Below, in pieces: positions 32,440-55,066 of a DNA stretch of 64,000 nt. The stretch lies in contig CAYRYE010000002.1 of NCBI GenBank assembly GCA_964428655.1, forward strand, positions 183,156 to 247,155, read 5' to 3'. This DNA comes from an uncultured Gammaproteobacteria bacterium (GTDB lineage: Bacteria; Patescibacteriota; Microgenomatia; UBA12405; JAHJSD01). The notes under the pieces are model-generated. The model did no database searches and was not told the DNA's origin. It saw only the letters and a list, made by a program, of their open reading frames with translations. How positions within the stretch are numbered: position 1 is the first letter of the stretch; each line of letters begins with the position of its first letter. A program made the translations under genes and the position numbers.

Positions 32440-32952
32440 ATGCAATATTTTAAGCTAGAAAGGACATTCCAACTCTACCTTTTAAAAATAAGAAACCTCT
32501 CTCCTAGGAGTGTCAAAAATTATTTATCTGACTTCCGCCAGTTCTGGAAATGGTTGCTAAGTCATTCCTCCCGACTACTTCGGGACGGTGAAACGACTCT
32601 CTCAAAGTGGAGGGAACAAACATTCCAAATCCAATCAATCACTCCCCAACTTTTATCTGACTACAAAAACCATCTTTTAACCAGTAATATCAGCAAATCA
32701 ACTACCAAGAGAAAGCTGGCAACTATTAGAATTTTTTGCCAATTCTGCCTAAATCAAAACTGGATGAAGAAAAACCCTGCTCTGGAATTGGAAAATCCAT
32801 CAAGATTAGGTCCAAAAGAAAAAGAAGTCCATGATCTACTCTCCAAATTCGGCAGTTATTTGAAAACTGAAAATATGAGCAAAAATACAATTAAAAATTA
32901 TATAGCTGATGCAAGACAGTATTTGGTATCTGGTATATCGAAAAATGTCTAG
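32440..32952 (+). CDS. protein with two tandem tyrosine-recombinase N-terminal (SAM-like core-binding) domains and no catalytic domain; possibly the detached N-terminus of the downstream giant gene
   Basis: NLSPRSVKNYLSDFRQFWKWL and NMSKNTIKNYIADARQYLVS match the XerC/D/phage-integrase N-terminal core-binding domain pattern (LSxnTlxaYrrdLxxFxxwL); ends 18 nt before the 2457-aa gene, whose own N-terminus is a bare TM helix. Confidence 0.6.
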   Translation: MQYFKLERTFQLYLLKIRNLSPRSVKNYLSDFRQFWKWLLSHSSRLLRDGETTLSKWREQTFQIQSITPQLLSDYKNHLLTSNISKSTTKRKLATIRIFCQFCLNQNWMKKNPALELENPSRLGPKEKEVHDLLSKFGSYLKTENMSKNTIKNYIADARQYLVSGISKNV

Positions 32953-40366: not shown

Positions 40367-43300
40367 ATGGATTTAAACAAATTACTACAACTAAATCAAA
40401 TCAGACACTATTTAGAAACCTTGAGAGTACAGGGTAAAAGTGAGGCGACTATCAGACGAAAGGCGATAGCGCTAAAGAAATTCGCAGAGTGGGCTGCCAC
40501 CAAGGAACAATCCCGAATTGGGATCGGAATCGGAATAATTGGCGGCACTAAACCAAAAACATTCAAAGAACAAGTCTCTCATAAAATACTTAATACTAAA
40601 TACCAAATACTAAATACTCTTTCCTCTGTTCCCGCCTACTTCAAGTTCGGCGCCATTGCCATCATGACCGTTGCTCTGGGCCTATTCATTTATGATCAAT
40701 TTATTAAGAAAGCTCCAGAGCAACTAGCCTATCCTTCCACCCTCACAGCTCCATCACGAGTCCTTTCCTTTCAAGGCCGGTTGACTGACGACCAAGACAC
40801 GCCAATCACCGACTCAACCAACTTTGTTTTTAAACTTTGGAAAGTAGAGGAAAATGGAACAGAAGTTGATTGTGATGGCGGTGGAGATGAAGATTGTCTT
40901 TGGGAATCAAACACCTGCGGCATTAACCCTGATGAAGACGGCATCTTCTCAGTCCGGCTAGGAGCGACCAGTGGCTCTGACGCTTGCGGCGGAGCAATTG
41001 ACTCCTCGGTCTTCACTGAAAATATTGGCATTTGGTTAGAAGTAACTGTAGCCAGCGAAACACTTGATCCCCGTCAACCAATTGCCACCTCAGCCTATGC
41101 CTTAAACGCTGAAACTCTACAAGGATTTCCGCCAGGAACCGGCACAAGCAACATATTATATATAGACAGCAGTGGCAACATTGGCATCGGTGTCACTTCA
41201 CCTACCCTAGATGCCACCAGCTCCAGCGGCACTTTTGCCATCAAGGGCCAATCATTACTACTGCAAACTCCTAATACTTCTGATGGCGACATTGGTATCA
41301 ATCCTGACGGTGAAGGTGTTTTAGATTTGATTTTTGATGGCTCTGCCCCTTCAAGCAGTTATACCAGCAACGGCATCGGCGGCTTTGTCACTGCCACCAA
41401 CAGCAACATTACTTCCGGAGCAATGTATTTTGGTGAAGTCGCTTCAGTTGCCACCGGCTATGACTTTATCCAATTTATGTCCGGCTCAACGCCAACAGAA
41501 AAATTCTCGGTTGATGCTTCAGGCCACACCTACATCGCCGGCAACGTCGGGATTGGGACGACAAACCCTAATAACTTTAAACTTCAGGTGGATGGCAATG
41601 TTGGTCCTCAGACTGACAGCGACTATGATTTAGGATCTGACACTATTAGATGGGCTAATGTTTATGCTGATAATTTAATTGGTACTATCTCTCCAGGATT
41701 TTCTGAAGGATCAGTTATCTTTGCTGATAGTTTAGGAGATCTTACTGAAGATAATGCTAATTTCTTTTGGAATGATACTGATGATAGGTTGGGGATTGGA
41801 ACTACGGAGCCAGGGGCAAAATTACATACTTATAGAAATGACACTATTGGAACATGGGGGGCAATGACATTATCTAATGCCACTGCCTTATTTCAGGATT
41901 CAGGTGTTAATCTCTATGTTGACGGAAACACTTTAGTAACTAGTGGAGATTTATATCTTGGTACTTCAACAGCAAGTGACATTTTTTTTGGTACTAACGA
42001 CGCCTATACAGTCACCTTTAAATCAGGCGGTGATGTGGGAATTGGCACAACTGAACCCTCTGCCCTACTTTCAGTTGGTTCTACTTCTCAATTTCAAGTC
42101 AACTCTTCTGGAGCCATTGCGGCAGCAACAGGCATTACCTCTTCTGGAACCATTACATTTTCTGATCTTAGCACTAATGGACCTACCTATGTTGCTACAG
42201 GAGTAATGAATAGTGAACAGTATCTTGACATGACTAGAGGAGGAACTGATGCTGATCTTTCAGGGGTAGCTGAAGGAGGTTTAATATATAAAGCAGCTTC
42301 TGCTCTAGCAGGTACAGGAGCTTTAACAGGAATGCTGAAAGGCAATACTGCTTCGGCTCCTAGCGCAGTTACTTCTACAGCCGACTATGTTACTTATTGG
42401 AGTGATGCCAACACTATTACTGGAGAGCAATACCTCTCAGTCAGCCGAGGTGGGTCTGGAATAGGCACCTTCACTAAAGGAGTTCTCCTTTCTCCCGGTG
42501 GCACTACTGCTTTTACTACTGTAGCTGGAATAAACAATTACATCCCCAAATGGTCATCTAGTTACATAACTACCACTAGCTCAATTTATGATGATGGCGA
42601 TGTCGGCATTGGGACGACTGGGCCGGGACAGAAATTAACAGTTCAAGATGATAATTCAGATAGCATTCCAACAGATCAGGATTTAGAAGTAGGGCAGATT
42701 CAAATTCAAAATCTTGACGCGTCAGCAGTATTTGCAGGTCTATCTTTTAGGGCAAGAACAACAAATAGAGCTATGGGATTGATTGGATTGGATTGGGCAA
42801 GTGGTGCTGGTGATATTTTCTTCCGAATCAGAGATGGTTCTTTAACTTCTAAAGAAGTTATGAGATTAGAAAGTACGGGCAACGTCGGGATTGGGACAAC
42901 AGATCCTCAAGCTTTACTCTCAGTAGGTTCTACTTCTCAATTCCAGGTAAACTCGACTGGAGCCATTGCGGCAGCAACTGGAATAACGTCTTCAGGCACT
43001 ATTACTTTTAGTGGTTTAACCGCTAATCGTTTAGTCACTACCACCACAGGAGGACAATTAACCAATTCCATCACCTCGGCTAATGTTGACGACTCAGTCA
43101 CGAATAACACAGGATCAGGTCTTCTTGTGTTTGCTACTTCACCTATCTTTACTACAGATATAACTACTCCTCAGATTCTTTCTTCTGCTGATTTAACTAT
43201 TGATCCAGCAGGAGAAAATGTCAACCTAGGCTCAGGAGACAATCTTAACATCACAGCTTCAACTGATTTGTTCTTTGGCACTACTTCATTGGGAGAGATA

Positions 43301-46300
43301 ACAGGACCAACTGATTCTGGTGCTTATGTAGTAGGAACTAATGATGAGTTTAGTAATAGTGATGAAGTTAATGTTCAAGGAGTCTTAGATGATTTAGATG
43401 CCCATATTGAGAGTTTGGAAACGGGTGGATCTGGTCTATGGATAGATGATGGTTTATACATTTATCCTATTAACTTTACTGACTTTGTCATTACTGATGC
43501 CGGCAACGTGGGGATTGGGACAACGGGGCCGGATAGTCCTCTTGAAATTAGCGGCAGTGGTGCTCAACAATTAAAAATCACTTCAACTGACCATATAAGC
43601 TCGGCAGTTGTTTTGGAAAGAACTGATAATGACTACTATGACTGGAGAATGATGAATAGCGGCGGTAATCTTTTTTTCTCTGAAAGTATAGATGAAGGTG
43701 CTTCTTGGCTTGACAATGTATTCTTTGGAGGCGATCCTACTTATCATGGACGCGTCGGGATTGGAACAACCGCACCTGATGAAGAACTTACAGTTTCCAT
43801 AGCCCAAAACGAATCCACTCTTATAAAAGTAACAAACAGTACTAATGACACCTTAGCAGCTGCTGGATTTTATTTTGACTCTGCTACTAGTAATGGTATT
43901 TTTGCTGCTCTTCCAAGTAATTATACTGGTGGTGGTACGGGAGCGCATTTTGCTGATCGGGTTGGATTCACTGCTTATGATACTGCCGCTGGCCTAGATG
44001 TTGTTGCTATTGACACTAACGCCGACATCCGCTTTTACACTGGCGGCCTTGCAATTTCAAATGAAAGAATTAGAATTGAGTCCGGTGGCAACGTCGGGAT
44101 TGGGACGACGGGGCCAAACGCGCAGTTCGAGGTTCGAGGTTCAGGGTTGGAGGCAAGATTAACAGATGATGGAACAGGATATTATGCAGATTTAGGAGTT
44201 GACTCCAGCGGCAATCTAACTATCTCTACTTCAAATGGAGCCTTGAACCTTGAACCTACAGCCAACCAGAACTTGAATATCACTACTTCAGGAACAGGAG
44301 ATGTAGCAGTCAATACCAACCAACTCTATGTTGATTCAAGTTCTGGCTATATTGGGATTGGGACAACGGGGCCACTTGTGAAGTTAAATGTTTCACAAGA
44401 TCAGGTTACAAGCATAAGTCAAGCGCAGTTTATGATTACAGGAGCAACTGACACTAATAAGAGAACATTGATAGGATATAACACAACAAACAATTACGGC
44501 TGGATGGGAGCAGGAACACTAGATTCTCAATGGGATCCACTGGTTTTACAACCAATTAGCGGCAACGTTGGGATTGGGACGACTAATCCAGGGGCAAAAT
44601 TAGAAGTGGCCGGACAAGTAAAAATTACAGGTGGAAGTCCGGGAGCTGATAAAGTATTAACTTCAAATGTTAGTGGTTTAGCCACTTGGGAAACAATTGG
44701 TGGTGAAGGGGTTACTCCTGATTCTTTAGACTACACTGAGTTTGTTGATGCAATGACTGTTGACGATAACACCAGTATTAATCTCTACAGTGGCACTACT
44801 GATGTTGATCTTAGATATTACAATTCCAGCTCCTCAGACGAACTACTCTTTTTAGATGGAAGCACGGGGTACGTCGGGATTGGAACGACTGGGCCGGGGG
44901 CAAGGTTAGACATTCATAATGATGCAAGCACAGGTGTCCCTTTAAATGTAATGTCTAGAGCTGGTTCAGCAGATAACGGAGAACTACAGATTGGCTTCAT
45001 TAATAATGACGGAGGACAAAGCTGGCGTATGGGAACCGCAAGCGATAGAAATTTTTACATTACAGAAGATGATGCTGGTGGTTATGGAACATCCAGATTG
45101 ACTCTCGAAGAAGGCGGCAACGTCGGCATTGGGACGACAAATCCAAGCGCTACACTACACGTTGCAGGCAATACACTAACAACAGGTAATACCTATATTG
45201 GCGCTACCACCGGCGATCAATACTTTTGGAGTGATTCCGCAGGAAGAATTGCTACAATGGCAGATTTTTATGTCCAAGCTACCTCATCAAACACTTACCT
45301 CTACTCTGCCATCACATACCTGGGAGCTGCCTCAGGTGATAACATCCTTTTCAGAGCAAATGAAGTATATGGCGATTCCTGGAGAATATCCTCTACTACT
45401 GGAGCTTATCACGCCGGCTCATCTACTGAATATGTTTATAATCGTTTCGGCTCCGGAGGAACAGCTAATTTTGCTTCTGATGATGCTTCTGATGTATATG
45501 TTCAGGATGAATTAGAGGTGGATGGTTCTATATGTTTGGGTGGGGTTTGTGAGTCTACCTTCCTGGATTTTGGTCCGTGGGACTATAACTCTGGCGCTAA
45601 CACTGTTCATCCTGATAGCACTTCCTACAATGTAGGTATTGGTACAACCAGCGCCGGCACTGCCAAACTAGCAGTAATAGGCGGCAATGTGGGGATTGGG
45701 ACAACGGGGCCGGGATATAAACTCGATGTAAATGCCGGAACTGATAATGAAATTACAAGATTTATCAGTACAGATGATTCGGCAAGAATTTTAGTTACGG
45801 ATGAGGATACAACCACATACTTGGGTTCTAGTAACGGATATACATATTTAGGTGGTGGAGCAGGACTTCTAGCTCAGAACCTGGTGATAAATACAACAAC
45901 CGGCAACGTCGGGATTGGGACGACTGATCCCAAGGCAGAACTTCATGTGATGGGTACATCTGGCACTATCCCCTCCTTATTTAGTGGTACCAATCTGGTT
46001 GTATCCAATACAGAAGCTGCTGGAAACAATACTAATATCTCAATTTTAGGTGGTGCAGAAGGTGATACGGCAATTATGTTTGGCGACACTGCTGACGAAG
46101 ACGCAGGAGCAGTTAGTTACGATCACAATACAGACTATATGTCTTTCAGGGTAAATGCAGGGACAAAGATGACCATTGACGATAGTGGCAACGTCGGGAT
46201 TGGGACGACGGGGCCAGGAATGCCTCTCCATTTAACCAAAGCGAGTAATGATTTAGTTGAGTTTGAAAGTACTAATTCATGGATGGGGTTGCATTTAACA

Positions 46301-49300
46301 GGAGCCGCAGGGTACGACTCAAACATTTATTTCAAAGAAGCTGATACAAAAGAAATGAGAATTAGTTGGGATGCTTCGGAAAACGAGTTAGCATTTGTGG
46401 ATGAAACAGATAGTGCTGCGAGAAGAATGGTTATAGAACAAACCGGCAACGTGGGGATTGGGACGACGGGGCCCACTTCCCTACTTCACCTGGCCTCTAC
46501 TTCTACATCTACCGGCTTTACTGGTTTTAATCTGGATTGGTCGCCTGGTTCTGCTGCCACTCTTACCGGTGATCTGTTTGCTATCAACATTGGCAGTAAT
46601 GGTAATGCTGATAATTTATTTAATGTGTTAGATAATAGTTCCTCTTTATTCTCTGTCTCAGAAACCCAGATAACCTCTGCTCTTCCCCATCAATTTACAT
46701 CTACAGGAGATGTGTCAATAGCTTACGACATAATTTTTACTAACCAAACCGCTTCTTATATAAAATCTTATGCTCCTTTATATATTGATGCTGGAGAATC
46801 TTTTGAAAGCAATGATCTGACTTTATCTACTTATAATGCCGGAGATATTGTTTTTGACGCCGGTGATGCCAGCGGCGATACAGGAACAATTAAATTTTAT
46901 GATGCTTATGTTAAGGGAGCAACTGATACGACACCAATTGCTTTTTCTGATGTGGCCGCTGATATTAATACTTTCAGAACAAATTACACTGATGAAAATA
47001 TTATTGGCGCTTTTAATGAAGTCTATGATGCGGCTACCGGCTCTGTTGGTGGTGGCGGTCCCTGGACTCGCTCTGGAACTGATACTTATCTTACTAATAC
47101 TGGAGATAACGTCGGTATCGGAACGACGGATCCAGACAATAAACTAGACATCAGTGGGACATTGGAAGTTGGTACTAGTACTAGAGGAGCTCTCTTATAT
47201 TCTACTGCCGCAGATAATTTTAGATTCCACACCTATACTAATACCCCCAATCCAAATATTCGGATTGGATATGGTAATGGATCAGGTGGACAAGATACTT
47301 CAAGTGAATATATTGATATGAATGCAGGAGAGATAAATTTCATAAATGCCGACGTCGGGATTGGGATAGCGACTCCGGATGAACCTTTAGAAATTTATAG
47401 ATCAAATGATCCCACTGCAGGTACTACATATTTAAAAATAACAAATCCTTCAAGTGGAAATTGGAAGACTGGAGAAGCAGCAACAGGTATACGGTTCGAA
47501 AAGGAAGGGAAAATTACAGGATATATTGAATCCGCGCACTTCCGTACCGGCAGTGGAGCGGATCATAGTAACGAGGATGCTGGACTTGCCTTCGGTACAA
47601 GACACAGCCATGATTTAGATCCAACTACCAAGATGGTAATCGATAATTATGGCAACGTAGGAATTGGGACAACGACGCCGGGAGCTAAGCTAGACATCCT
47701 ATCGACCGGCGAACAACTAAGAACTAGCTATAACTCCAGCAATTACACTCAGTTTGAAACCGACAGCGATGGCGACTTAAATATCACCCTCAACGGGGGT
47801 GGAAGTGATAAAAGAGTAATCATTAGTAATGATCTGCAAATTAATGGTGGAGATATTGTTGACAGCAGCGGTACTACAAGAATCAGCATCGGCAATGTAA
47901 TCTCTCTTTATCCTGACTCCTCCAATTTAGTCCGAGTTATCAACACCAGTGGATCACCAGCCAGTAGATATTTGCCATTAAGACTAACTCGCTCATATTC
48001 TAGTTTCAGCACAAGTTATGAGGTTGGGATACAGTTTGACATCCAAGAAAACACCACTGTCATGCCGGCAGGATTTATTAGCAGTAAAATTACAGACTCT
48101 ACAAATGAGTATGGCAAAATGTTTCTCGCCACTTCAGATGGAACTGGCGATACTGATTGGGAAATAGGGATAACCATAGACCACTTGGGCAACGTCGGGA
48201 TTGGGACGACGAATCCAACAGAAAAACTTCATGTTGTTGGAGATGGCTACTTTACCGCCGATGTAGGTATTGGAACTGCTGTCAACGCCACTTATGACCT
48301 ATCGGTTGGATCACATATAAGAACGGTCTCGGGCAACATTTACTCTGGAGGAACCCAAGGATTTGTGTTCGGGAGTTCTACTAGTGAAGGAGAATATATT
48401 TATAGATCCGGCAATGATATTCGAACATATGCAGGAGGAGCTAATGTACTCACTGTTGATGGAGATAACGGAAGAGTCGGGATTGGGACGACGGGGCCGG
48501 AAATGACATTAGATGTTTATGGAGGTGTTGGTACTGGTATTATAGTTGGGGATCATGCAGTGAGACAGCCATATATTAGACGCTCTCTACATAGCCCAAG
48601 TGATGTGACATATAGTTTTTATGGTTACACTGATGCTGGGATGTATATGCCTGAAGCTAACAAATTAGCTTTCGCTGTAAATGGTGGAGAAAGAATTACA
48701 CTAGACAGTGGCGGCAACGTCGGGATTGGGACGACGAGTCCGCTAGGGCAACTTGATGTTGTTGGTGGTGTAACCAGAACCGGAACCGCACCAACAACCC
48801 CATCTTTTTACGTAACTGGTACATTAAGTGCTGGTACAGCAGGACCCGCAGCCAATAACATAGAGTTCAGACACGATAATCAAACCCAAGGAATAGGTTT
48901 TGGGTATCAGACAATCTACGCAACAGGAACAACTACCAATCAACCATTAAATTTGTTGTCGAGAGGATCAAGCCCAATAACATTAAACGCGTACGGGTAC
49001 AGCACCGGCAACGTCGGGATTGGGACGGCGGGGCCGTTGTCAAAACTTAGCGTCGGCGGAGCTGGCATATCTAACACCGGCGTGTATGGCTACGGCACCA
49101 GCTACGGCGTGTATGGCGGCGGCGGCACCTACGGCGTGTATGGCAGTGGCACAGGCTACGGTGTGCGAGCAATGGGCGGTACCTACGGCTTGTATGGCAG
49201 CGGCACAAGCTACGGCGCATATGGCGCGGGCGATACCTCCGGCGTGTATGGCGACGGCGGTACCTACGGCGTGTATGGCGACGGAACCACTGGCGTGCGT

Positions 49301-51916
49301 GGCGACGGCACCTACGGCGTGTATGGCTACGGCACCAGCCAGGGTGTGTATGGCACCACCTCCACTGGACAAGGTGTACGTGGCAATAGCACTAGCGGCT
49401 GGGCAGGATATTTTGATCAAAAAACTTATGTTGCTGATTACCTACGAGCTGATGGTGGATTAACCACTAACAGTACCGATCCAGGAGCAGGTAATATTAG
49501 GGCGTCTGGAAGCTTAACATTAACAGCTGCTAATCCCTATATCTACAGTGGCAGTTCATATATTATAATTCCAAATGGTCTTTTTGTCAGTGGAGGCACT
49601 CCTTATTTTACTAATGACATTAAGGCTAGGGGAGGCATTAGTGATGATGGTGGAAATTTATATTTAAATGATACTGTTGTTGTCAATGGTAATGATGGTG
49701 GTACTAATTTATATATTAACGCTATTGATGCAAACGAAGGTGGCCAAATAGCACTGCAACCTGGATCAAGTTATTCAAGTGATGTGTTTTACCTTGACAA
49801 TGTTCAGGGATTCCCTCGCATCTATCAAAGTAGTAGCAATACTAGAACAATGCAGATTGCCAATTACGGTACTGGAATACTTAACTTGAATGTAGAAGGA
49901 ACATCGACCGACTTTGCTGAAATGATACATACTGATGAAAGGTTGGAAAGTGGAGATCTAGTTGTGAGTCACGAAAGTCAAGAAGTAACAGTGAGATTAG
50001 CAGATGATGCCTACTCGCCAAATATTACCGGCATCATTTCAACTAGACCGGGAATTTTATTATCAAGTCTTGACAAGGCTAATGATACCAGTACTTCAAT
50101 TGGTACAGTAGGTAAGGCAGTAATATTTGATAAATACGCCCCGCTGACTGTTTCTGGGAGAGTACCACTCAAGGTTAGTTCTTCAAGTGGGTATATCTCT
50201 AATAGTGATCCTGTTACTTCGTCTTCACTTGCTGGTTTTGGTATGAAAGCCACTCAAGCCGGCCCTATTGTTGGAAAGGCACTGGAGTCAACAGGTCACT
50301 GGAATGATACAAATTGTCCAGCAATTGCTTCTGTTGACTCTATCACATGGCCTGAAGATGATGGAAATAATCCTGCGAAACCCTGCTTTAAACTTCCTGA
50401 TGGTACTTACATAGGCAAGATAATAGTACTTGTGAATCTCAGCTGGTATGACCCGGATGTTTATCTAACAGATACGGGAGATTTAAATATTACCCAAAAC
50501 AACAACGGAGATCTTATTTTAAAGAATAAAGATAGTTTAGTTGATAAAATTGGTGCTTTTACAGAACTGGTTGTAGCTAAAGTTAAGGCCGGACTAGTGG
50601 AAACAAAAGAATTAACAGCAGAGAATAAAATCATCTCACCGTTGATTGAAACAGAAGAAATAGTAATTAGTGATCAGGAATTAGTAATTAGTAATCAAGA
50701 GGGAGAGGATTTAATTGAAATCGATAGCGATGGGGCAACAACCCATTTTGGTGATTTGATAGTTGAAGGTGATGCTGGATTCAGCGGCAATGTGGGCATT
50801 GGCCATCTTACAGCAGAAGAAATTGACACGAATACACTTGAAAGCAAAGCGATTAGCACAGATCAAATGCAAATTAACACGGATGCAACCGTTTCCGGCA
50901 CATTGTACGCTGATCAGATTGTGACTAGGAAAGGCACCTTTGGCGAATTGATGGCTGATAAGATTAGCGCTATTAGGGTGGAGTTAGAAGAGTTGCTAGC
51001 TAACAAAATTGCTAATTATGATAGCGGGGTGGAAAAGGATGACACTGGAGCTTTGGATACTGTTACTGGCACTTCCCTTGCTTCTCAGGCTGAGGAATGG
51101 GAGACAGATCCACCGTCCGATTCCTCCACCGCATCCACTCCTGGAGAGTCTGCTGGGTTGTCATCTGCTGGGTTGTCAGATGAAATAATTATCGCCTCCA
51201 GTTTAGTAATTCAGGGAAAAATGACAGTGGAAGAAGCGTTTATTAACAAACATTTGCTAGTCGGCAATATTGCCATTACTAAAAACTCCATTGCTACTTT
51301 GGCTGATACCCTTTACATCCAGCCAAGTGGAACAGGCAAAGTTGATATTTTAGCTGGAATTTTGGTAATTGAGGATAATGGCAGTGTGACGATTAATGGA
51401 GACTTGTTTGTGAATGGCAGTGTAATCGCAGAGGAATATCAAGGAAAGGACGGGGATTTTGCGATTAATTTAGCTGGAGAGTCTGCTAGTGGTTTCGGCA
51501 AATTAATGGTCAAGGGAATTGATAACGAGGTGGTAACCAGCATTGATGCCAGCGGGTCGGCGCAATTCGCCGGAGACTTAATTGCTTCAGGCTCGGCTAC
51601 TTTTGCTAAAGTCAATATTGCTACGGCATCGGCCGAACCAATTATTGCTGGCTCGCAATTTGGCGATTTGGCCACTGACTCAGCCAAACTAAAAACTAAT
51701 GCCACGGCTGGTGAAGGAATAATTCCGACTGGAAAAAAAGAAGTAATTATTTACAGTGATAAATTAACTTCAGAATCGCTGGTTTACATTACTCCAACAA
51801 CAGATACTGAAAATCAGGTGTTGTTTGTCAAGCAAAAAGCAAGCGATCATTTCACTGTGGCCATAAAAGAAGAATTAAACAAAGAAATACGATTCAACTA
51901 TTGGATTATTAACTAA
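40367..51916 (+). CDS. giant cell-surface protein (3849 aa): cytoplasmic integrase-SAM-like N-domain, TM helix, about 21 GNVGIGTTxP-type repeats (tail-fibre-like), Gly-Tyr repeat region, C-terminal conserved domain
   Basis: N-terminus IRHYLETLRVQGKSEATIRRKAIALKKFAEWA (recombinase core-binding-like) then IGIGIGIIGG and TM FGAIAIMTVALGLFIY; GNVGIGTT(G/N/D)P recurs about every 80-100 aa with near-identical DNA core ggcaacgtcgggattgggacgacggggcc; C-terminal 70 aa shared with 51920..53062. Confidence 0.9.
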   Translation: MDLNKLLQLNQIRHYLETLRVQGKSEATIRRKAIALKKFAEWAATKEQSRIGIGIGIIGGTKPKTFKEQVSHKILNTKYQILNTLSSVPAYFKFGAIAIMTVALGLFIYDQFIKKAPEQLAYPSTLTAPSRVLSFQGRLTDDQDTPITDSTNFVFKLWKVEENGTEVDCDGGGDEDCLWESNTCGINPDEDGIFSVRLGATSGSDACGGAIDSSVFTENIGIWLEVTVASETLDPRQPIATSAYALNAETLQGFPPGTGTSNILYIDSSGNIGIGVTSPTLDATSSSGTFAIKGQSLLLQTPNTSDGDIGINPDGEGVLDLIFDGSAPSSSYTSNGIGGFVTATNSNITSGAMYFGEVASVATGYDFIQFMSGSTPTEKFSVDASGHTYIAGNVGIGTTNPNNFKLQVDGNVGPQTDSDYDLGSDTIRWANVYADNLIGTISPGFSEGSVIFADSLGDLTEDNANFFWNDTDDRLGIGTTEPGAKLHTYRNDTIGTWGAMTLSNATALFQDSGVNLYVDGNTLVTSGDLYLGTSTASDIFFGTNDAYTVTFKSGGDVGIGTTEPSALLSVGSTSQFQVNSSGAIAAATGITSSGTITFSDLSTNGPTYVATGVMNSEQYLDMTRGGTDADLSGVAEGGLIYKAASALAGTGALTGMLKGNTASAPSAVTSTADYVTYWSDANTITGEQYLSVSRGGSGIGTFTKGVLLSPGGTTAFTTVAGINNYIPKWSSSYITTTSSIYDDGDVGIGTTGPGQKLTVQDDNSDSIPTDQDLEVGQIQIQNLDASAVFAGLSFRARTTNRAMGLIGLDWASGAGDIFFRIRDGSLTSKEVMRLESTGNVGIGTTDPQALLSVGSTSQFQVNSTGAIAAATGITSSGTITFSGLTANRLVTTTTGGQLTNSITSANVDDSVTNNTGSGLLVFATSPIFTTDITTPQILSSADLTIDPAGENVNLGSGDNLNITASTDLFFGTTSLGEITGPTDSGAYVVGTNDEFSNSDEVNVQGVLDDLDAHIESLETGGSGLWIDDGLYIYPINFTDFVITDAGNVGIGTTGPDSPLEISGSGAQQLKITSTDHISSAVVLERTDNDYYDWRMMNSGGNLFFSESIDEGASWLDNVFFGGDPTYHGRVGIGTTAPDEELTVSIAQNESTLIKVTNSTNDTLAAAGFYFDSATSNGIFAALPSNYTGGGTGAHFADRVGFTAYDTAAGLDVVAIDTNADIRFYTGGLAISNERIRIESGGNVGIGTTGPNAQFEVRGSGLEARLTDDGTGYYADLGVDSSGNLTISTSNGALNLEPTANQNLNITTSGTGDVAVNTNQLYVDSSSGYIGIGTTGPLVKLNVSQDQVTSISQAQFMITGATDTNKRTLIGYNTTNNYGWMGAGTLDSQWDPLVLQPISGNVGIGTTNPGAKLEVAGQVKITGGSPGADKVLTSNVSGLATWETIGGEGVTPDSLDYTEFVDAMTVDDNTSINLYSGTTDVDLRYYNSSSSDELLFLDGSTGYVGIGTTGPGARLDIHNDASTGVPLNVMSRAGSADNGELQIGFINNDGGQSWRMGTASDRNFYITEDDAGGYGTSRLTLEEGGNVGIGTTNPSATLHVAGNTLTTGNTYIGATTGDQYFWSDSAGRIATMADFYVQATSSNTYLYSAITYLGAASGDNILFRANEVYGDSWRISSTTGAYHAGSSTEYVYNRFGSGGTANFASDDASDVYVQDELEVDGSICLGGVCESTFLDFGPWDYNSGANTVHPDSTSYNVGIGTTSAGTAKLAVIGGNVGIGTTGPGYKLDVNAGTDNEITRFISTDDSARILVTDEDTTTYLGSSNGYTYLGGGAGLLAQNLVINTTTGNVGIGTTDPKAELHVMGTSGTIPSLFSGTNLVVSNTEAAGNNTNISILGGAEGDTAIMFGDTADEDAGAVSYDHNTDYMSFRVNAGTKMTIDDSGNVGIGTTGPGMPLHLTKASNDLVEFESTNSWMGLHLTGAAGYDSNIYFKEADTKEMRISWDASENELAFVDETDSAARRMVIEQTGNVGIGTTGPTSLLHLASTSTSTGFTGFNLDWSPGSAATLTGDLFAINIGSNGNADNLFNVLDNSSSLFSVSETQITSALPHQFTSTGDVSIAYDIIFTNQTASYIKSYAPLYIDAGESFESNDLTLSTYNAGDIVFDAGDASGDTGTIKFYDAYVKGATDTTPIAFSDVAADINTFRTNYTDENIIGAFNEVYDAATGSVGGGGPWTRSGTDTYLTNTGDNVGIGTTDPDNKLDISGTLEVGTSTRGALLYSTAADNFRFHTYTNTPNPNIRIGYGNGSGGQDTSSEYIDMNAGEINFINADVGIGIATPDEPLEIYRSNDPTAGTTYLKITNPSSGNWKTGEAATGIRFEKEGKITGYIESAHFRTGSGADHSNEDAGLAFGTRHSHDLDPTTKMVIDNYGNVGIGTTTPGAKLDILSTGEQLRTSYNSSNYTQFETDSDGDLNITLNGGGSDKRVIISNDLQINGGDIVDSSGTTRISIGNVISLYPDSSNLVRVINTSGSPASRYLPLRLTRSYSSFSTSYEVGIQFDIQENTTVMPAGFISSKITDSTNEYGKMFLATSDGTGDTDWEIGITIDHLGNVGIGTTNPTEKLHVVGDGYFTADVGIGTAVNATYDLSVGSHIRTVSGNIYSGGTQGFVFGSSTSEGEYIYRSGNDIRTYAGGANVLTVDGDNGRVGIGTTGPEMTLDVYGGVGTGIIVGDHAVRQPYIRRSLHSPSDVTYSFYGYTDAGMYMPEANKLAFAVNGGERITLDSGGNVGIGTTSPLGQLDVVGGVTRTGTAPTTPSFYVTGTLSAGTAGPAANNIEFRHDNQTQGIGFGYQTIYATGTTTNQPLNLLSRGSSPITLNAYGYSTGNVGIGTAGPLSKLSVGGAGISNTGVYGYGTSYGVYGGGGTYGVYGSGTGYGVRAMGGTYGLYGSGTSYGAYGAGDTSGVYGDGGTYGVYGDGTTGVRGDGTYGVYGYGTSQGVYGTTSTGQGVRGNSTSGWAGYFDQKTYVADYLRADGGLTTNSTDPGAGNIRASGSLTLTAANPYIYSGSSYIIIPNGLFVSGGTPYFTNDIKARGGISDDGGNLYLNDTVVVNGNDGGTNLYINAIDANEGGQIALQPGSSYSSDVFYLDNVQGFPRIYQSSSNTRTMQIANYGTGILNLNVEGTSTDFAEMIHTDERLESGDLVVSHESQEVTVRLADDAYSPNITGIISTRPGILLSSLDKANDTSTSIGTVGKAVIFDKYAPLTVSGRVPLKVSSSSGYISNSDPVTSSSLAGFGMKATQAGPIVGKALESTGHWNDTNCPAIASVDSITWPEDDGNNPAKPCFKLPDGTYIGKIIVLVNLSWYDPDVYLTDTGDLNITQNNNGDLILKNKDSLVDKIGAFTELVVAKVKAGLVETKELTAENKIISPLIETEEIVISDQELVISNQEGEDLIEIDSDGATTHFGDLIVEGDAGFSGNVGIGHLTAEEIDTNTLESKAISTDQMQINTDATVSGTLYADQIVTRKGTFGELMADKISAIRVELEELLANKIANYDSGVEKDDTGALDTVTGTSLASQAEEWETDPPSDSSTASTPGESAGLSSAGLSDEIIIASSLVIQGKMTVEEAFINKHLLVGNIAITKNSIATLADTLYIQPSGTGKVDILAGILVIEDNGSVTINGDLFVNGSVIAEEYQGKDGDFAINLAGESASGFGKLMVKGIDNEVVTSIDASGSAQFAGDLIASGSATFAKVNIATASAEPIIAGSQFGDLATDSAKLKTNATAGEGIIPTGKKEVIIYSDKLTSESLVYITPTTDTENQVLFVKQKASDHFTVAIKEELNKEIRFNYWIIN
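41536..49035 (+). repeat. intragenic array of about 21 near-identical 25-30 nt cores (ggcaacgtcgggattgggacgacgggg) within about 250-300 bp protein repeats
   Basis: Direct reading: cores at about 41540, 42590, 42880, 43500, 43740, 44090, 44350, 44560, 44870, 45115, 45690, 45900, 46190, 46440, 47100, 47340, 47650, 48190, 48470, 48710, 49010. Confidence 0.85.
49060..49400 (+). repeat. GC-rich tandem repeat (ggcacctacggcgtgtatggc-type, 21-24 nt period) encoding (G-x-Y-G)n Gly/Tyr-rich segment
   Basis: Protein segment GVYGYGTSYGVYGGGGTYGVYGSGTGYGVRAMGGTYGLYGSGTSYGAYG...; produces artefactual ORFs on both strands (49020..49463, 49040..49420). Confidence 0.85.
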
Positions 51917-51919
51917 CAA

Positions 51920-53062
51920 ATGAAAATCCTACATATTAAACTAATCTGGTTTTTGCCGATTTTGGCGGGAGGGGTTATTGGGGGAATATTAACCTCGAAC
52001 CAGCGGTCCAACACATCCATCCTTAGTCCCATTATCCCACCGTCCGAAGATGTCCGTGGGCCAAATTTGGACAAGACAACCTCAGAGGAAGAGCTCGCCT
52101 CGGAAAAGGGATCCCTGCAGCAGCAAATTCTCACCTCCCAGTCGCTTTTGGCCAAAGCAATTGAAATTTCAAAAGAAAAAGATAGCGCCCAAAACCAAAG
52201 AATTGTTCAATTAATTAATGAGGCGATTACTACTATTAATCAAGCTATCGGTCAATATCCCAGTGATCACCGAGCTTGGGCCCAAAGAGCCAAGATTTAT
52301 CAAACAATTAAAGGTTATATGCCTGAAGCAGAAAAAGTGGCTATTGGCGATTGGCAGAGAGCAATCAAACTGGACCCTAATAACAGCGATTACTACCAAT
52401 CATTAGCTAGTATCTATCAGGTTAATGGAATCAAGATAGCCATTTTTTATTTGCAAAAAGCAGTTGAGACTAATCCAACTGATCCTAATTTACTCAAACA
52501 ATTAGCTGAATATCAAACAAGGGCAGGAATGCTGAGCCAAGCCAGAACAAGCTACCAACAAATTTTGGCTATTTTAATTGATCAAGAACAAAGAGAAGTA
52601 ATTAAAAAAGAAATCAAGGGTTTAGAACGTTTAATAGTTCAGGCGGGAATTGAGTCCGATGCGGCCACTCCGGAAAGGTCTATTCCGTTCGAGGAGTCTA
52701 CCATTACTCTCCCCGAGTCGCCGCCCCTGCTAGAAGCTAGGCATTTAGCCAGTAATACTATTATTGCCGCTCCCGTCTCACCATCCCAACATACATCGGG
52801 AGGAGAGACTATCTCAAGTGCTCTATCAGGGATGGCGATTTTACCAACTGGTGAAACAGAGGTTAAAATTTGCAATGAAAATCTCTCCCCTAATACACAA
52901 GTATACTTAGTTTCAGAAGGAGAAGATGAAAATCAAGTCTTAATAGTTAAAAGAAAAGTGCCGTTTGATCCAGAGACCAATGAATGCAGCCACTTTGTAG
53001 CCGCTATTCAAAAACCCTTGAACCAAGATTTGAAATTCAGATGGTGGCTGATAGAAAATTGA
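51920..53062 (+). CDS. N-terminally anchored TPR-repeat protein with C-terminal domain shared with the 3849-aa protein
   Basis: N-terminal TM LIWFLPILAGGVIGGILT; TPR-like helices (AWAQRAKIYQTIKGY, YYQSLASIYQVNG, LLKQLAEYQTRAG); C-terminus PTGETEVKICNENLSPNTQVYLVSEGEDENQVLIVKRKV...FVAAIQKPLNQDLKFRWWLIEN aligns with PTGKKEVIIYSDKLTSESLVYITPTTDTENQVLFVKQKA...FTVAIKEELNKEIRFNYWIIN. Confidence 0.75.
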   Translation: MKILHIKLIWFLPILAGGVIGGILTSNQRSNTSILSPIIPPSEDVRGPNLDKTTSEEELASEKGSLQQQILTSQSLLAKAIEISKEKDSAQNQRIVQLINEAITTINQAIGQYPSDHRAWAQRAKIYQTIKGYMPEAEKVAIGDWQRAIKLDPNNSDYYQSLASIYQVNGIKIAIFYLQKAVETNPTDPNLLKQLAEYQTRAGMLSQARTSYQQILAILIDQEQREVIKKEIKGLERLIVQAGIESDAATPERSIPFEESTITLPESPPLLEARHLASNTIIAAPVSPSQHTSGGETISSALSGMAILPTGETEVKICNENLSPNTQVYLVSEGEDENQVLIVKRKVPFDPETNECSHFVAAIQKPLNQDLKFRWWLIEN

Positions 53063-53077: not shown

Positions 53078-55066
53078 TTAGTCAACTGACTCGGGTGATT
53101 CAATCGGCTCAATAGGCTCGCCCTCCAAATCAAAAGGAGTTGGCGTAAGAGTCTCCATTTCCTCTAACGGCGGTGCGGCTTCTTCAGGAAGCTGGATCGG
53201 TTCTTCAAGTTGAGGTGTTGGTAAAGGCCCAGGCTGAGTCAATTCCTTCGGCGCTTCCTCTTTTTCGCTGGCGGCTGCTTCCTGACCCAGTTCTTTTTTC
53301 CACTCTTCTAATTCTTGTATTGATTTTTCATAATCAGGAGTATCTCTTGCCACCAAATTGACTGCTTGTTGAAGCTTGACTACTGCGTCTTCTAGTTTTT
53401 CCTGTTGTTTTAGAACCCAAGCCCAATTATACCAAGCATTGGCAAAATCAACCTTCAGACTAACAGCAATTTCAAATTGTTTAGCGGCCTCATCAAGCTG
53501 GTCCATACCGTAAAGCAAACCGCCATAATCAACTCGTAAACGAGGATTAAGAGAATCTAAAGCAATCGCCTGCTGATAAGTAGTCACTACCCATTGATCA
53601 GCTCCTTCGGCTACGTTAACTAACTGGCGGTAGATCTGGGCCAGGTTTTCCCAACCAATTACATTCCTTGGCTCTAAAGCCACGGCTGTTTTAGCTTCTG
53701 AAACTGATTGATCTAAAAGTTGAGTTATTTGGCGATGCTCATCATCGGTCAAATCCTCCCCTTTATTGGCTAAACTATTGGCCAAGGCTAGATTAGTTTG
53801 AGCAAAAGAAATTCGGTAGCGTGACAAAAAGCGGTTTTGATTAATAGCGGCTAGCTGAAAATTGTAAGTATCCCCGCCTCTATTCTCAGAGGCCGCTTTG
53901 ATTGCTTGGTAAAAAGTAAATTCTGACCGGAAACCACGATAGAGAAAATAACCACTTACCATAGTAAAAACAATTAGCAAACTACCAAATATTATCGGTG
54001 CGCTGTCTTCTCCTTTTTCACCAACAACTAAAGAAAAACTCCGTTCTTTGCCCTTGCCTCGGACTAAAGCTAAAGACAAAAAGAGAATAAAGACAGTAAT
54101 TAAATTGCCAGGAAAGAGCAGTAAAGCCAACCATGTCAACCCTAGCAGCCGACCAGTCTCATTTTTCTTTGCCGAACGAATGGTGCGGAAAAATAGAGAA
54201 AGCAAAATAATTAAACCAACCAGGCCTGTCTCAGTCCAAAGCTGTAAGAACCAACTATGAGGGGCGCCAAACCTGAAATTCCAATTTTCACCTCGGTTAA
54301 ACTCGATAGGACGATAAAGATTAAAAGCAGTATTAAAATTACCCGGGCCAACACCAAGGATTGGGCTCCTTTTAAAGGACTCAACAGCAATTGCCCAGGA
54401 GGAAAACCAATCTAAAAAAACTACCTTAATTTTGAAGGTTTGATAAAGAGCTGTTCCTGCCCCTACTAAAATAATAATTCCCAAAAGGGCCAGCCACCAC
54501 TTTTTTAACTCGCCTTTTCCCTTTACCTCCTTTACAATCAAGCCAATAATTAAAGCAGCCATTAAAACTAATAATTGGGCAAGAATCACTGGCGAGCCTA
54601 AGGCAAGACGGCTAAGTTGATTAGCCCAAAAACCAGTAGAAGAAACAGGCAAGACAAATAAAGTTACGGAAAACAAACTAGTAATCGCCGCTGAAATTAG
54701 CAAGGCCATTAAAGTTTTCTTCCTTTTTCCTGTTGATTTAAGTTGGCTTAAAGAGAAGTAAAAAAGAGTTAGAACAATAACTGTGCCTAAACCTAATGGC
54801 TGAAGTAAAGAGCGAACTTTTGTTCCAGAAGGCAAGAAAAACCAGGAAACTAAATTGGACAACAAAAAGAGAAAAACTAAAAAGTCCAACGGCGCAATTG
54901 AATAAACAAGTTTCTTGGCCTTTAACAGGCGGATCCCGGCAATAACCAAAACTACTAAAACCGCTATTGCTAAAAAGAAATTTTTGCCATCAAAAACTGA
55001 ATCAGTAATCCAAGGAAAAAAAAACAGGGGAAAAAGGAAAACAATTAATGTGATTAGGATTAACAT
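53078..55066 (-). CDS. polytopic membrane protein (Wzy/O-antigen-ligase-like) with C-terminal TPR domain and acidic Pro/Glu tail
   Basis: About 12 TM helices in N-terminal 400 aa; C-terminal TPR-like repeats (AVALEPRNVIGWENLAQIYRQL, AIALDSLNPRLRVDYGGLLYGMDQLDEAAKQFEIAV, ANAWYNWAWVLKQQEKLEDAVVKLQQAV). Confidence 0.55.
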   Translation of the reverse strand: MLILITLIVFLFPLFFFPWITDSVFDGKNFFLAIAVLVVLVIAGIRLLKAKKLVYSIAPLDFLVFLFLLSNLVSWFFLPSGTKVRSLLQPLGLGTVIVLTLFYFSLSQLKSTGKRKKTLMALLISAAITSLFSVTLFVLPVSSTGFWANQLSRLALGSPVILAQLLVLMAALIIGLIVKEVKGKGELKKWWLALLGIIILVGAGTALYQTFKIKVVFLDWFSSWAIAVESFKRSPILGVGPGNFNTAFNLYRPIEFNRGENWNFRFGAPHSWFLQLWTETGLVGLIILLSLFFRTIRSAKKNETGRLLGLTWLALLLFPGNLITVFILFLSLALVRGKGKERSFSLVVGEKGEDSAPIIFGSLLIVFTMVSGYFLYRGFRSEFTFYQAIKAASENRGGDTYNFQLAAINQNRFLSRYRISFAQTNLALANSLANKGEDLTDDEHRQITQLLDQSVSEAKTAVALEPRNVIGWENLAQIYRQLVNVAEGADQWVVTTYQQAIALDSLNPRLRVDYGGLLYGMDQLDEAAKQFEIAVSLKVDFANAWYNWAWVLKQQEKLEDAVVKLQQAVNLVARDTPDYEKSIQELEEWKKELGQEAAASEKEEAPKELTQPGPLPTPQLEEPIQLPEEAAPPLEEMETLTPTPFDLEGEPIEPIESPESVD

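What the first reader, a model, noticed from the sequence alone, without database searches (positions are those of the whole stretch)
51700..53062. Conserved about 70-aa C-terminal domain shared by the 3849-aa giant and the adjacent TPR protein: candidate sorting or attachment module
The last about 70 aa of both proteins align (PTG[KE].EV.I.......VY......D.ENQVL.VK.K....F.VAI...LN....F..W.I.N). A shared C-terminal module on two neighbouring, otherwise unrelated envelope proteins is the pattern expected for a sorting signal or a domain bound by a common partner. It resembles no classical LPXTG, PEP-CTERM or Por-secretion tail that I can recognise.
Basis: seen in the sequence. Interest (0 to 1): 0.6.

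Follow-up and report, generated by a model that had tools for sequence, protein, structure and literature searches.

The report
Phage tailspike-type end domain, two neighbours
The shared tail of the giant protein and its small neighbour is a real, widely conserved folded domain, distantly related to the end-cap of phage tailspikes and tail fibres, and it marks a gene cluster for cell-surface fibres in ultra-small (Microgenomates/CPR) bacteria rather than acting as a classical sorting signal.

Summary
The last ~83 aa of the 3849-aa giant (nt 51665-51913) and the last ~90 aa of the adjacent 380-aa TPR protein (nt 52784-53059) align at 34% identity (BLASTP E=5e-17). The score lies 26.7 SD above shuffles. 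No other ORF in the window carries the module.

An exhaustive HMMER scan finds 1207 representative proteins with it, almost always ending at the very last residue (consensus ...NQVLYVKxK...FNWWIIN-COOH). The genome hits with informative labels are almost all Patescibacteria/Microgenomates.

It is a folded six-strand beta-sandwich (AF2 pLDDT 88.6). Its best structural matches are the C-terminal domains of phage tailspikes. 16 of 55 family members hit Pfam PF24146 (K1-lyase_C); the two window copies do not.

Carriers fall into two classes: tail-fibre-like giants, and a conserved TM-TPR-CTD family with its own Cys-pair subtype. An O-antigen-ligase-like Wzy_C-TPR membrane protein is a conserved downstream neighbour (36 of 65 loci).

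Best reading (inferred): a trimer-capping or assembly domain of a membrane-anchored surface fibre, reused by a dedicated partner protein as a homotypic docking module. A classical sorting signal is not supported; a domain bound by a common partner remains possible. The fold is known, the cellular context is new.

The parts
51665..51913 (+). C-terminal domain (CTD) of the giant, aa 3767-3849, fibre-type subfamily (TNATAG...LVYITP...NQVLFVKQK...FTVAI...FNYWIIN-COOH)
   Evidence: Family HMM envelope, E=2.8e-32; BLASTP to the TPR-protein tail E=5e-17; 82% identical orthologue fragment P0001.
52784..53059 (+). CTD of the TPR protein, aa ~289-380, small-protein subtype with a Cys pair (KIC...ECSHF) and F[KR]WW ending
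   Evidence: Family HMM E=5.9e-35. AF2 with a 55-sequence alignment: pLDDT 88.6, six beta-strands. Foldseek hits to tailspike C-terminal domains. The Cys-pair subtype is found only in the small class.
51920..53062 (+). TM-TPR-CTD protein gene (380 aa): N-terminal hydrophobic anchor (aa ~8-25), TPR region (aa ~97-235), Pro/Ser-rich linker, CTD
   Evidence: Translation. Pfam TPR_17 E=2.4e-13 and other TPR models. 25 full-length homologues at 27-59% identity. 9 of 10 small-class representatives carry TPRs.
40367..51916 (+). Giant tail-fibre-like surface protein (3849 aa): N-terminal Phage_int_SAM-like domain, TM helix at about aa 94-110, fibre body, conserved C-terminal cassette, CTD
   Evidence: ORF. 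Pfam N-terminal hit and translation. TM position. PHROG tail-fibre families phrog_9942 and phrog_18345, E down to 5.5e-40.
49889..51664 (+). Conserved C-terminal cassette of the giant (aa ~3175-3766) preceding the CTD. It is homologous to the region that in other carriers begins with an intramolecular-chaperone (Peptidase_S74/G2) domain and ends in a bactofilin-like beta-helix.
   Evidence: BLASTP coverage of the giant's last 900 aa by other carriers. Pfam on carriers P0039, P0092, P0125 and P0085. SDxRLKxN motif in 16 of 67 carriers but not in this giant.
53078..55066 (-). Wzy_C (O-antigen-ligase-like) + TPR polytopic membrane protein (662 aa), a conserved neighbour of CTD genes
   Evidence: Pfam Wzy_C 30.5 bits (cut-off 31.7) plus TPRs. 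Full-length homologue downstream of the CTD gene in 36 of 65 genome loci with >=3 kb of flank, 31 of them within 3 kb. Also next to small-class genes in L087, L090 and L091.
32970..40343 (+). 2457-aa LamG-repeat giant (N-terminal anchor, DUF2341, 7 Laminin_G_3 stretches), same operon, no CTD
   Evidence: Pfam; N-terminus; homologues in 15 of 87 related loci, including L086 where it sits between the CTD giant and the small TM-TPR-CTD gene.
32440..32952 (+). 170-aa ORF with Phage_int_SAM-like domains (two matched stretches to Phage_int_SAM_1), first gene of the apparent operon
   Evidence: Pfam E=9e-13 to 4e-12. Homologous stand-alone ORFs lie directly upstream of CTD giants in L012, L016, L019 and L022.

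Best explanation
The shared module is an ~80-aa beta-sandwich domain, a divergent cellular branch of the C-terminal domain of phage tailspikes and tail fibres (Pfam K1-lyase_C). In the solved K1 lyase, three copies of that domain pack into a dome that closes and locks the trimer behind the beta-helix. The giant is a tail-fibre-like protein held in the membrane by an N-terminal helix, with a small cytoplasmic SAM-like domain. Its body is followed by a conserved ~690-aa C-terminal cassette whose last element is this domain. I infer that the domain is the C-terminal oligomerisation (trimer-capping, folding-nucleus) element of the fibre. The 380-aa neighbour belongs to a conserved TM-TPR-CTD family that is genetically tied to such fibres and carries its own old subtype of the domain. 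I infer that it uses the domain for the same homotypic association. It would either form its own membrane-anchored trimer or dock on the fibre's C-terminal end while the fibre is assembled or held at the membrane, in the manner of a tail-fibre assembly or tip protein encoded just downstream of a fibre gene. The Wzy_C-TPR membrane protein next door is part of the same module, with a role still to be found. Shown: homology, fold, position, distribution and gene linkage. Inferred: trimerisation, and any contact between the two proteins.
For: Real and specific similarity. Family of 1207 representatives with the domain at the extreme C-terminus. Confident all-beta model, pLDDT 88.6. The best PDB matches are the C-terminal parts of tailspikes: Pam1 7eea, K1 lyase 7w1c/7w1d, phi297 4ru5, Sf6 2vbm and K64-1 S2-4 9k4a, with TMq 0.45-0.63 and probability 0.75-1.0. 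BFVD matches reach TMq 0.65-0.75 and E down to 4e-4, several of them named K1-lyase C-terminal-domain proteins. 16 of 55 family members hit PF24146 at E<=0.01 (best 3.2e-11), and several full proteins pass its 27-bit threshold. The role of that domain in the K1 lyase trimer is described in PMC8822698. The giant's body hits PHROG tail-fibre families, E to 5.5e-40. A bactofilin-like beta-helix lies directly before the CTD in carrier P0085, which aligns with the giant over aa ~3158-3849. Small-class proteins form a full-length family with TPRs and a private CTD subtype. The TPR-protein CTD is 49-56% identical to most other small-class CTDs but 37% to the giant's, so the pair is old, not a local duplication. 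In 5 of 5 small-gene loci with enough flank, a large CTD carrier lies within 7 kb. The CTD is conserved across carriers whose bodies differ widely, which fits a structural or assembly role better than a host-specific receptor tip.
Against: Neither window copy matches PF24146 directly, even at E<=10. hhalign of the family against the K1 lyase domain itself is not significant. Foldseek E-values against PDB are weak (0.1-1). The link to the solved trimeric domain is therefore remote and transitive. No oligomer prediction could be run, so trimerisation is by analogy only. The TPR protein has no beta-helix or fibre for the domain to cap, so a pure cap role does not explain its presence there. Only 10 of 65 large-carrier loci have a small CTD gene nearby. 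Residues invariant in both subtypes include polar, probably exposed ones (N, K-x-K), which would also fit ligand binding. In carriers with a Peptidase_S74 site, the domain may be cleaved off with the cassette.
Confidence: 0.45

Rival explanations
1. Attachment or common-partner module. Both CTDs bind the same third component, for example a cell-envelope glycopolymer made or ligated with the help of the neighbouring Wzy_C-TPR protein, or that protein's TPR domain. This would hold the carriers' C-termini at the envelope.
For: Strict C-terminal position and strong conservation, including invariant polar residues (N, K-x-K) shared by both subtypes. Conserved linkage to a Wzy_C-TPR membrane protein, 36 of 65 loci. 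A few carriers have only a signal-peptide-like N-terminus and would need another means of retention. Weak fold matches to lectins and CBMs: Helix pomatia agglutinin prob 0.51, CBM3b prob 0.33.
Against: In the K1 lyase paper the two sugar sites described are in the receptor-binding domain, not in the C-terminal sandwich. The lectin matches are weak. The giant and the TPR protein already have N-terminal anchors.
Confidence: 0.22
2. Part of a releasable C-terminal assembly chaperone. The ~500-700-aa cassette ending in the CTD acts like an enlarged intramolecular chaperone of phage fibres and is cut off after the fibre has folded, so the mature fibre lacks the CTD.
For: 16 of 67 carriers of >=600 aa have the Peptidase_S74 cleavage motif SDxRLKxN 487-721 aa before the C-terminus, and Pfam Peptidase_S74 hits reach E 2.5e-12 to 2.6e-14. 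The giant's last ~690 aa align with the region following that site in those carriers.
Against: The window giant has no S74 motif or Pfam hit in its last 800 aa. Known intramolecular chaperone domains are about 150 aa and have a different fold (my recollection of the literature). This reading does not explain the TM-TPR-CTD protein.
Confidence: 0.12
3. Host- or prey-binding tip. The CTD is the distal receptor-binding domain of an adhesive fibre used by an episymbiotic CPR cell.
For: It sits at the far end of an N-terminally anchored fibre. C-terminal domains of many phage fibres bind receptors (general knowledge).
Against: It is the most widely conserved part across carriers with widely different bodies and across many Microgenomates lineages, whereas receptor tips are normally the most variable part. 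It also sits on a short membrane-proximal TPR protein.
Confidence: 0.08
4. Secretion or sorting signal in the strict sense. The CTD would be recognised by an export or sorting machine and possibly removed, as for type IX secretion C-terminal domains.
For: Beta-sandwich of similar size at the extreme C-terminus on many proteins. An O-antigen-ligase-like gene lies next door.
Against: No match to Por_Secre_tail or any NCBIfam or Pfam sorting-signal model among 55 members. Carriers are one structural class plus one partner family, not diverse cargo. The window carriers have N-terminal membrane anchors. No sortase or peptidase gene was recognised among the window neighbours scanned against Pfam, and none recurred among the neighbour genes tested in related loci.
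Confidence: 0.06

Closest known systems
Pfam PF24146 K1-lyase_C: C-terminal beta-sandwich of Klebsiella phage NTUH-K2044-K1-1 K1 capsule lyase (PDB 7W1C/7W1D) and related phage tailspike and tail-fibre ends
   Same: About 70-90 aa, all-beta sandwich, the last domain of a fibrous or beta-helical protein. Family-level HMM matches for 16 of 55 relatives. It is among the top fold matches.
   Different: The two window copies are too diverged to hit the model. This branch is cellular (Microgenomates), has its own consensus ending FNWWIIN-COOH, was not found in IMG/VR viral contigs or INPHARED phages, sits on N-terminally membrane-anchored giants, and also occurs on a TM-TPR protein that has no fibre body.
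Phage tail fibres with C-terminal intramolecular chaperone (Peptidase_S74, endosialidase-type) and downstream tail-fibre assembly proteins
   Same: The giant's body matches PHROG tail-fibre families. Many CTD carriers contain a Peptidase_S74 domain. A small partner gene lies directly downstream of the fibre gene, as for phage Tfa proteins (general knowledge).
   Different: Here S74 sits ~500 aa before the C-terminus rather than at the end, and it is absent from the window giant. The downstream partner is a membrane-anchored TPR protein that shares the fibre's end domain, which is not how known Tfa proteins are built.
Type IX secretion C-terminal domain (Por_Secre_tail) of Bacteroidota
   Same: Beta-sandwich of about 80 aa at the extreme C-terminus of many surface proteins. 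Anchoring in that system involves a glycolipid (general knowledge), and here an O-antigen-ligase-like gene is a neighbour.
   Different: No sequence-model match. Different phylum. Carriers have N-terminal membrane anchors. No T9SS genes were seen. The best fold matches are tailspike ends, not T9SS CTDs.
LPXTG / PEP-CTERM / other tripartite C-terminal sorting signals
   Same: C-terminal position on several envelope proteins.
   Different: Those are a short motif followed by a hydrophobic helix and a basic tail. This is a folded 80-aa domain ending in ...WWIIN, with no terminal helix.

Membership tests
Pfam PF24146 K1-lyase_C | Direct match of the sequence to the family HMM at or above the gathering score (27 bits) | tested here: not met
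   The giant's last 99 aa and the TPR protein's last 120 aa give no PF24146 hit even at E<=10. Neither full protein gives one at E<=0.01.
Pfam PF24146 K1-lyase_C | Membership by transitive homology: close family relatives of the window domain match the HMM | tested here: met
   16 of 55 members of alignment A2 hit PF24146 at E<=0.01, best 3.2e-11. P0155, P0169, P0173, P0190, P0218 and P0129 score 28-36 bits, above the cut-off. The window copies match the A2 profile at E~1e-32 to 1e-35.
Pfam PF24146 K1-lyase_C | Beta-sandwich fold superposable on the C-terminal domain of K1 lyase and other tailspikes | tested here: met
Pfam PF24146 K1-lyase_C | Direct profile-to-sequence similarity to the solved K1 lyase domain | tested here: not met
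   hhalign of A2 against K1 lyase residues ~543-651: probability 0.9%, only 16 columns of the first hairpin aligned. The PDB sequence search found no tailspike.
Pfam PF24146 K1-lyase_C | Terminal position behind a beta-helical or fibrous body | tested here: met
   Met for the giant: tail-fibre PHROG hits in the body, a bactofilin-like beta-helix before the CTD in the aligned carrier P0085, and the CTD ending at the last residue. Not met for the TPR protein, where a Pro/Ser linker precedes the CTD.
Pfam PF24146 K1-lyase_C | Three copies form a dome that locks the trimer | not testable with these tools
   Described for K1 lyase in PMC8822698. No multimer prediction or experiment was available.
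Type IX secretion CTD (Por_Secre_tail, TIGR04183 / PF18962) | Match to the CTD models | tested here: not met
   No such hit for the window proteins in Pfam or NCBIfam, and none among the 55 family members in Pfam.
Tripartite C-terminal sorting signals (LPXTG, PEP-CTERM and similar) | Short motif, then a C-terminal hydrophobic helix, then basic residues | tested here: not met
   Both proteins end in a beta-strand (...FNYWIIN...FRWWLIEN) with no terminal hydrophobic helix. There are no NCBIfam sorting-signal hits.
Peptidase_S74 intramolecular chaperone (PF13884) | SDxxLKxN cleavage motif or HMM match in the C-terminal region | tested here: not met
   Absent from the window giant. Present in 16 of 67 other large carriers.
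Phage-type tail fibre proteins (PHROG phrog_9942, phrog_18345) | HMM match over the fibre body | tested here: met
   Giant segments aa 1-1000, 1001-2000 and 2001-3150 hit with E from 2.4e-13 to 5.5e-40. The last 699 aa and the CTD itself do not hit.

The most novel reading that the evidence does not exclude
The CTD is the recognition element of an undescribed surface-fibre assembly and attachment system of Microgenomates. The C-terminus of tail-fibre-like giants would be received by a membrane-anchored TM-TPR-CTD protein and an O-antigen-ligase-like Wzy_C-TPR protein, which dock, glycosylate or covalently attach it to an envelope glycopolymer. That would be a functional analogue of type IX CTD anchoring, in monoderm ultra-small bacteria, built from a domain of phage-tailspike type.
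Probability: 0.12. Interest if true: 0.8.

Novelty: new variant of a known kind. Interest (0 to 1): 0.45.

Why it matters
Patescibacteria (CPR) are thought to live attached to other cells (general knowledge), yet apart from type IV pili little is known about their surface machinery. This finding defines a conserved, easily recognised C-terminal domain (consensus ending FNWWIIN-COOH). The domain flags a family of giant, tail-fibre-like, membrane-anchored proteins in Microgenomates, a dedicated TM-TPR partner, and a linked Wzy_C-TPR membrane protein. It ties these cell-encoded fibres to phage tail-fibre and tailspike architecture, with a body, in some carriers an intramolecular chaperone, a beta-helix and an end cap. 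It also gives concrete constructs for structural and binding experiments. If the domain proves to be a docking or attachment signal, it would be a new envelope-assembly route. If it is only a trimer cap, it is an ordinary domain in an unusual host.

Tried and rejected
1. A word-index protein search with the two-sequence alignment found only one orthologue fragment. The exhaustive HMMER scan was needed.

2. A single-sequence AF2 run on the TPR tail gave a poor model, pLDDT 55. It was replaced by the MSA-based model.

3. A PDB sequence search with the family profile found nothing relevant.

4. hhalign against the K1 lyase C-terminal domain was not significant.

5. tblastn of the giant's last 299 aa against 50,697 phage genomes gave no match. 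A scan of IMG/VR viral contigs for FNWWIIN and NQVLYVKxK patterns gave no relative. The Microgenomates-type domain is therefore not simply a prophage gene.

7. Pfam at E<=1 on the giant's last 800 aa found no S74, G2 or bactofilin hit. The intramolecular-chaperone reading rests only on relatives.

8. The first genome scan with the 55-sequence alignment failed for lack of a conserved stretch. It was repeated with 12 sequences using the FNWWIIN pattern, which biases the loci toward the fibre-type subfamily.

9. Recent local duplication or gene conversion between the neighbours was rejected. Each copy is closer to its own subfamily in other genomes than to its neighbour.

10. I checked whether the TPR domain of the small protein is specifically related to that of the Wzy_C-TPR protein. 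There is only a 65-aa match at 25% identity, E=1e-5, which is inconclusive.

11. Literature searches for this CPR system or for PF24146 in CPR found nothing.

Full report
**Observation.**
The giant ORF (40367..51916, +, 3849 aa) and the next ORF (51920..53062, +, 380 aa) lie 3 nt apart on the same strand. The giant's last 99 aa align with residues 281-378 of the 380-aa protein: 61.6 bits, E=5e-17, 33 of 98 identical.

A Smith-Waterman score of 145 compares with 24.2 +/- 4.5 for 2000 shuffles (z=26.7). No other 80-aa window of the giant scores above 36, apart from those overlapping the tail. Searching all six frames of the window with either tail, or with a 55-sequence family HMM, finds only these two ORFs.

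The HMM envelopes are giant aa 3767-3849 (nt 51665-51913) and small protein aa ~289-380 (nt 52784-53059).

**Is it conserved elsewhere?**
A word-index search found only one orthologue fragment. An exhaustive HMMER scan of 1.84 billion representative proteins, using the two-sequence profile, found 1207 proteins at E<=1e-3 and 470 at E<=1e-10.

Among the best 150, the domain envelope ends exactly at the last residue in 113 and within two residues in 134. Carrier lengths run from 76 to 6192 aa. The family consensus is TNATAG.A.LPAG.TE..I......SLIY.TP...T.NQVLYVK.K-(variable loop)-F.VAI..P...D..FNWWIIN-COOH.

A scan of one genome per GTDB species for FNWWIIN gave 80 confirmed loci. Those with an informative label are almost all Patescibacteria or Microgenomates: Gottesman-, Woese-, Roizman-, Shapiro- and Levyibacteria. 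Many others are third-party assemblies labelled 'uncultured Gammaproteobacteria/Pseudomonadales'. These carry the same gene cluster, and one is a 615-kb chromosome, so I suspect the labels are wrong.

The window itself comes from a JGI metagenome contig. It carries ordinary bacterial genes: Rho, an M23/LysM peptidase and tRNA-Gly.

**What the domain is.**
Pfam and NCBIfam give no hit on the module in either window protein, even at E<=10. However, 16 of 55 diverse family members hit Pfam PF24146, 'K1 capsule-specific polysaccharide lyase, C-terminal domain', at E<=0.01, with a best E of 3.2e-11. Several full proteins exceed its 27-bit threshold.

AlphaFold2 on the small protein's tail with the 55-sequence alignment gives a confident six-strand all-beta model, pLDDT 88.6. 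A single-sequence run had been poor.

Foldseek against PDB puts tailspike C-terminal regions on top:
- cyanophage Pam1 (7eea)
- K1 lyase (7w1c/7w1d)
- phi297 gp61 (4ru5)
- Sf6 tailspike (2vbm)
- K64-1 S2-4 (9k4a)

These have TMq 0.45-0.63 and probability 0.75-1.0, though E-values are only 0.1-1. Against predicted viral structures the matches are stronger: TMq to 0.75, E to 4e-4. They include several proteins named for this very domain, plus tail fibres and pectate-lyase-type spikes.

The link is remote. hhalign of the family against the K1 lyase domain itself is not significant, and the PDB sequence search finds nothing.

In the K1 lyase crystal structure, this beta-sandwich (Asp560-Leu651, a four-stranded plus a three-stranded sheet) follows the beta-helix. 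Three copies form a dome at the trimer interface that locks the subunits and seals the helix channel. The authors call it a typical tailspike feature (PMC8822698).

**What carries it.**
The carriers fall into two classes.

(a) Large proteins.
- The window giant's body hits PHROG tail-fibre families phrog_9942 and phrog_18345 with E down to 5.5e-40.
- Its N-terminus is a Phage_int_SAM-like domain followed by a TM helix at about aa 94-110. 23 of 74 carriers of >=500 aa share this layout; most of the rest look like truncated gene calls.
- The giant's last ~690 aa form a cassette conserved in other carriers.
- In 16 of 67 carriers of >=600 aa, that cassette starts with the Peptidase_S74 intramolecular-chaperone motif SDxRLKxN, 487-721 aa before the C-terminus.
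- In P0085 a bactofilin-like beta-helix lies directly before the CTD.
- The window giant has no S74 signal.

(b) Small proteins of ~150-460 aa with an N-terminal hydrophobic anchor.
- 9 of 10 tested carry TPRs.
- The window protein has 25 full-length homologues at 27-59% identity.
- Their CTD is a distinct subtype: SNALSG, QVYL, F[KR]WW. A Cys pair (KIC...EC[SA]HF) was matched in 11 of 22 small-class proteins and in only 1 of 127 others, and that one looks like an N-terminally truncated small protein.
- The window's small-protein CTD is 49-56% identical to most other small-class CTDs but 37% to the giant's.

The two neighbours therefore carry old paralogous versions of the domain, not a recent local copy.

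**Gene neighbourhood.**
In the window, four genes run head to tail with 17-, 23- and 3-nt gaps: the SAM-like ORF 32440..32952, the LamG giant 32970..40343, the CTD giant and the TM-TPR-CTD gene. A Wzy_C (O-antigen-ligase-like, 30.5 bits against a 31.7 cut-off) plus TPR membrane protein converges on them at 53078..55066.

Among the 80 genome loci, 65 have at least 3 kb of sequence downstream of the CTD gene. Of those 65:
- 36 carry a full-length homologue of the Wzy_C-TPR protein downstream;
- 31 have it within 3 kb;
- 10 have a second, small CTD gene.

In the other direction, every small-class gene with enough flank has a large CTD carrier within 7 kb. This holds for the window, L086, L087, L091 and L092. 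In L086 the LamG giant sits between the two.

LamG giants recur in 15 of 87 loci and SAM-like ORFs in 14 of 87. This is a conserved multi-gene surface module.

**Interpretation.**
Shown: the module is a real, autonomous, strictly C-terminal beta-sandwich, remotely homologous to tailspike and tail-fibre end domains. It terminates tail-fibre-like giants and one TM-TPR family, and the genes are linked.

Inferred, by analogy with K1 lyase and with tail-fibre biology in general: in the giant, the domain caps and locks a trimeric fibre and may nucleate its folding from the C-terminus. The small protein has no fibre to cap. Its possession of the same domain, its dedicated subtype and its linkage to fibres point to homotypic association. 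It would either form its own membrane-anchored trimer or dock on the fibre's C-terminal end during assembly or retention. I put this at about 0.45.

The rivals are:
- Shared third partner or glycan, possibly connected with the Wzy_C-TPR protein (0.22). This is supported by invariant polar residues (N, K-x-K) common to both subtypes and by the synteny.
- Releasable chaperone cassette (0.12).
- Host-binding tip (0.08). This is disfavoured because the domain is the most conserved part, not the most variable.
- True secretion or sorting signal (0.06). This is disfavoured by the lack of any sorting-signal model match, the narrow range of carriers and the N-terminal anchors.

**Comparison with what is known, and novelty.**
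The fold and family are catalogued (Pfam PF24146; solved in 7W1C/7W1D), so the domain itself is not new.

What I found no description of (literature searches) is this cellular Microgenomates branch:
- its fixed FNWWIIN-COOH ending;
- its place on N-terminally anchored giants that have a cytoplasmic SAM-like domain;
- its duplication onto a TM-TPR partner;
- the linkage with a Wzy_C-TPR protein.

The Microgenomates-type sequence was not found in IMG/VR viral contigs or in INPHARED phage genomes. I rate it a new variant of a known kind, interest 0.45.

**Limits.**
- The genome scan used one exact peptide pattern and so favours fibre-type copies.
- Copies per genome could not be counted.
- The window organism's taxonomy is inferred from relatives. 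The closest Wzy_C-TPR homologue among the genome loci is in a Candidatus Shapirobacteria MAG, L025.

Noticed in passing
window 40367-40700 and 32440-32952: The giant surface protein begins with a Phage_int_SAM-like (tyrosine-recombinase core-binding type) domain on the cytoplasmic side of its TM helix. A separate 170-aa ORF with SAM-like domains (two matched stretches) opens the operon. The same N-terminus is found on 23 of 74 large CTD carriers, and stand-alone SAM-like ORFs sit directly upstream of CTD giants in L012, L016, L019 and L022. It is unexplained why a DNA-binding-type domain sits on a surface fibre.
   Followed up: partly
window 53078-55066 (-): A Wzy_C (O-antigen-ligase-like, just under Pfam's threshold) plus TPR polytopic membrane protein is a conserved downstream neighbour of CTD genes: 36 of 65 genome loci, 31 of them within 3 kb. 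Its substrate and role are unknown.
   Followed up: partly
window 32970-40343 (+): A 2457-aa protein with an N-terminal anchor, DUF2341 and seven Laminin_G_3 stretches, without the CTD. Homologues lie in 15 of 87 related loci, so it appears to be a second giant component of the same cluster.
   Followed up: partly
window 55116-56528 (-); L086 10721-14082: A 470-aa ORF with a weak dockerin-like C-terminus (Pfam E=3.4e-5). Its homologues in L086 sit in a run of minus-strand genes, one of which has a weak cohesin hit. This hints at a dockerin/cohesin-type contact within the cluster.
   Followed up: no
carriers P0025, P0034, P0036, P0039, P0092, P0125 and others (representative proteins, not in the window): A Peptidase_S74 intramolecular-chaperone cleavage motif (SDxRLKxN) lies ~490-720 aa before the C-terminus in 16 of 67 large carriers, far from the usual terminal position. 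It is absent in the window giant.
   Followed up: partly
P0030 and P0115 (CTD carriers): Intein_splicing (Hint-type) domain hits at the N-terminus (E 1e-10 and 5e-9) of two ~850-1040-aa CTD carriers. These may be gene calls starting inside a larger intein-containing protein.
   Followed up: no
P0181 (168 aa): A short protein that combines a type IV pilin N-terminal methylation motif (PF07963, precomputed) with the CTD.
   Followed up: no
loci L011, L013, L016, L019, L021, L027, L035, L091, L092: Small four-helix-bundle (23S rRNA intervening-sequence protein-like) genes are repeatedly inserted directly after the fibre gene, in several loci between it and its small partner or the Wzy_C-TPR gene. 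GxxExxY-type genes sit in the same position in other loci (L026, L029, L031).
   Followed up: no
loci L008, L011, L012, L014-L019 and others: Many third-party MAGs labelled 'uncultured Gammaproteobacteria/Pseudomonadales' carry this Microgenomates-type cluster. One is a complete 615-kb chromosome (OZ246397.1). The taxonomic labels look wrong.
   Followed up: no
small TM-TPR-CTD proteins (window 51920-52150 and homologues): About half of the small-class proteins (18 of 37) have an [LIVFM]SP motif roughly 5-20 residues after the N-terminal hydrophobic segment. Nearly all start the TPR region with YLL[ST]SQ[SA]LL.KA. The first may be a processing site.
   Followed up: partly
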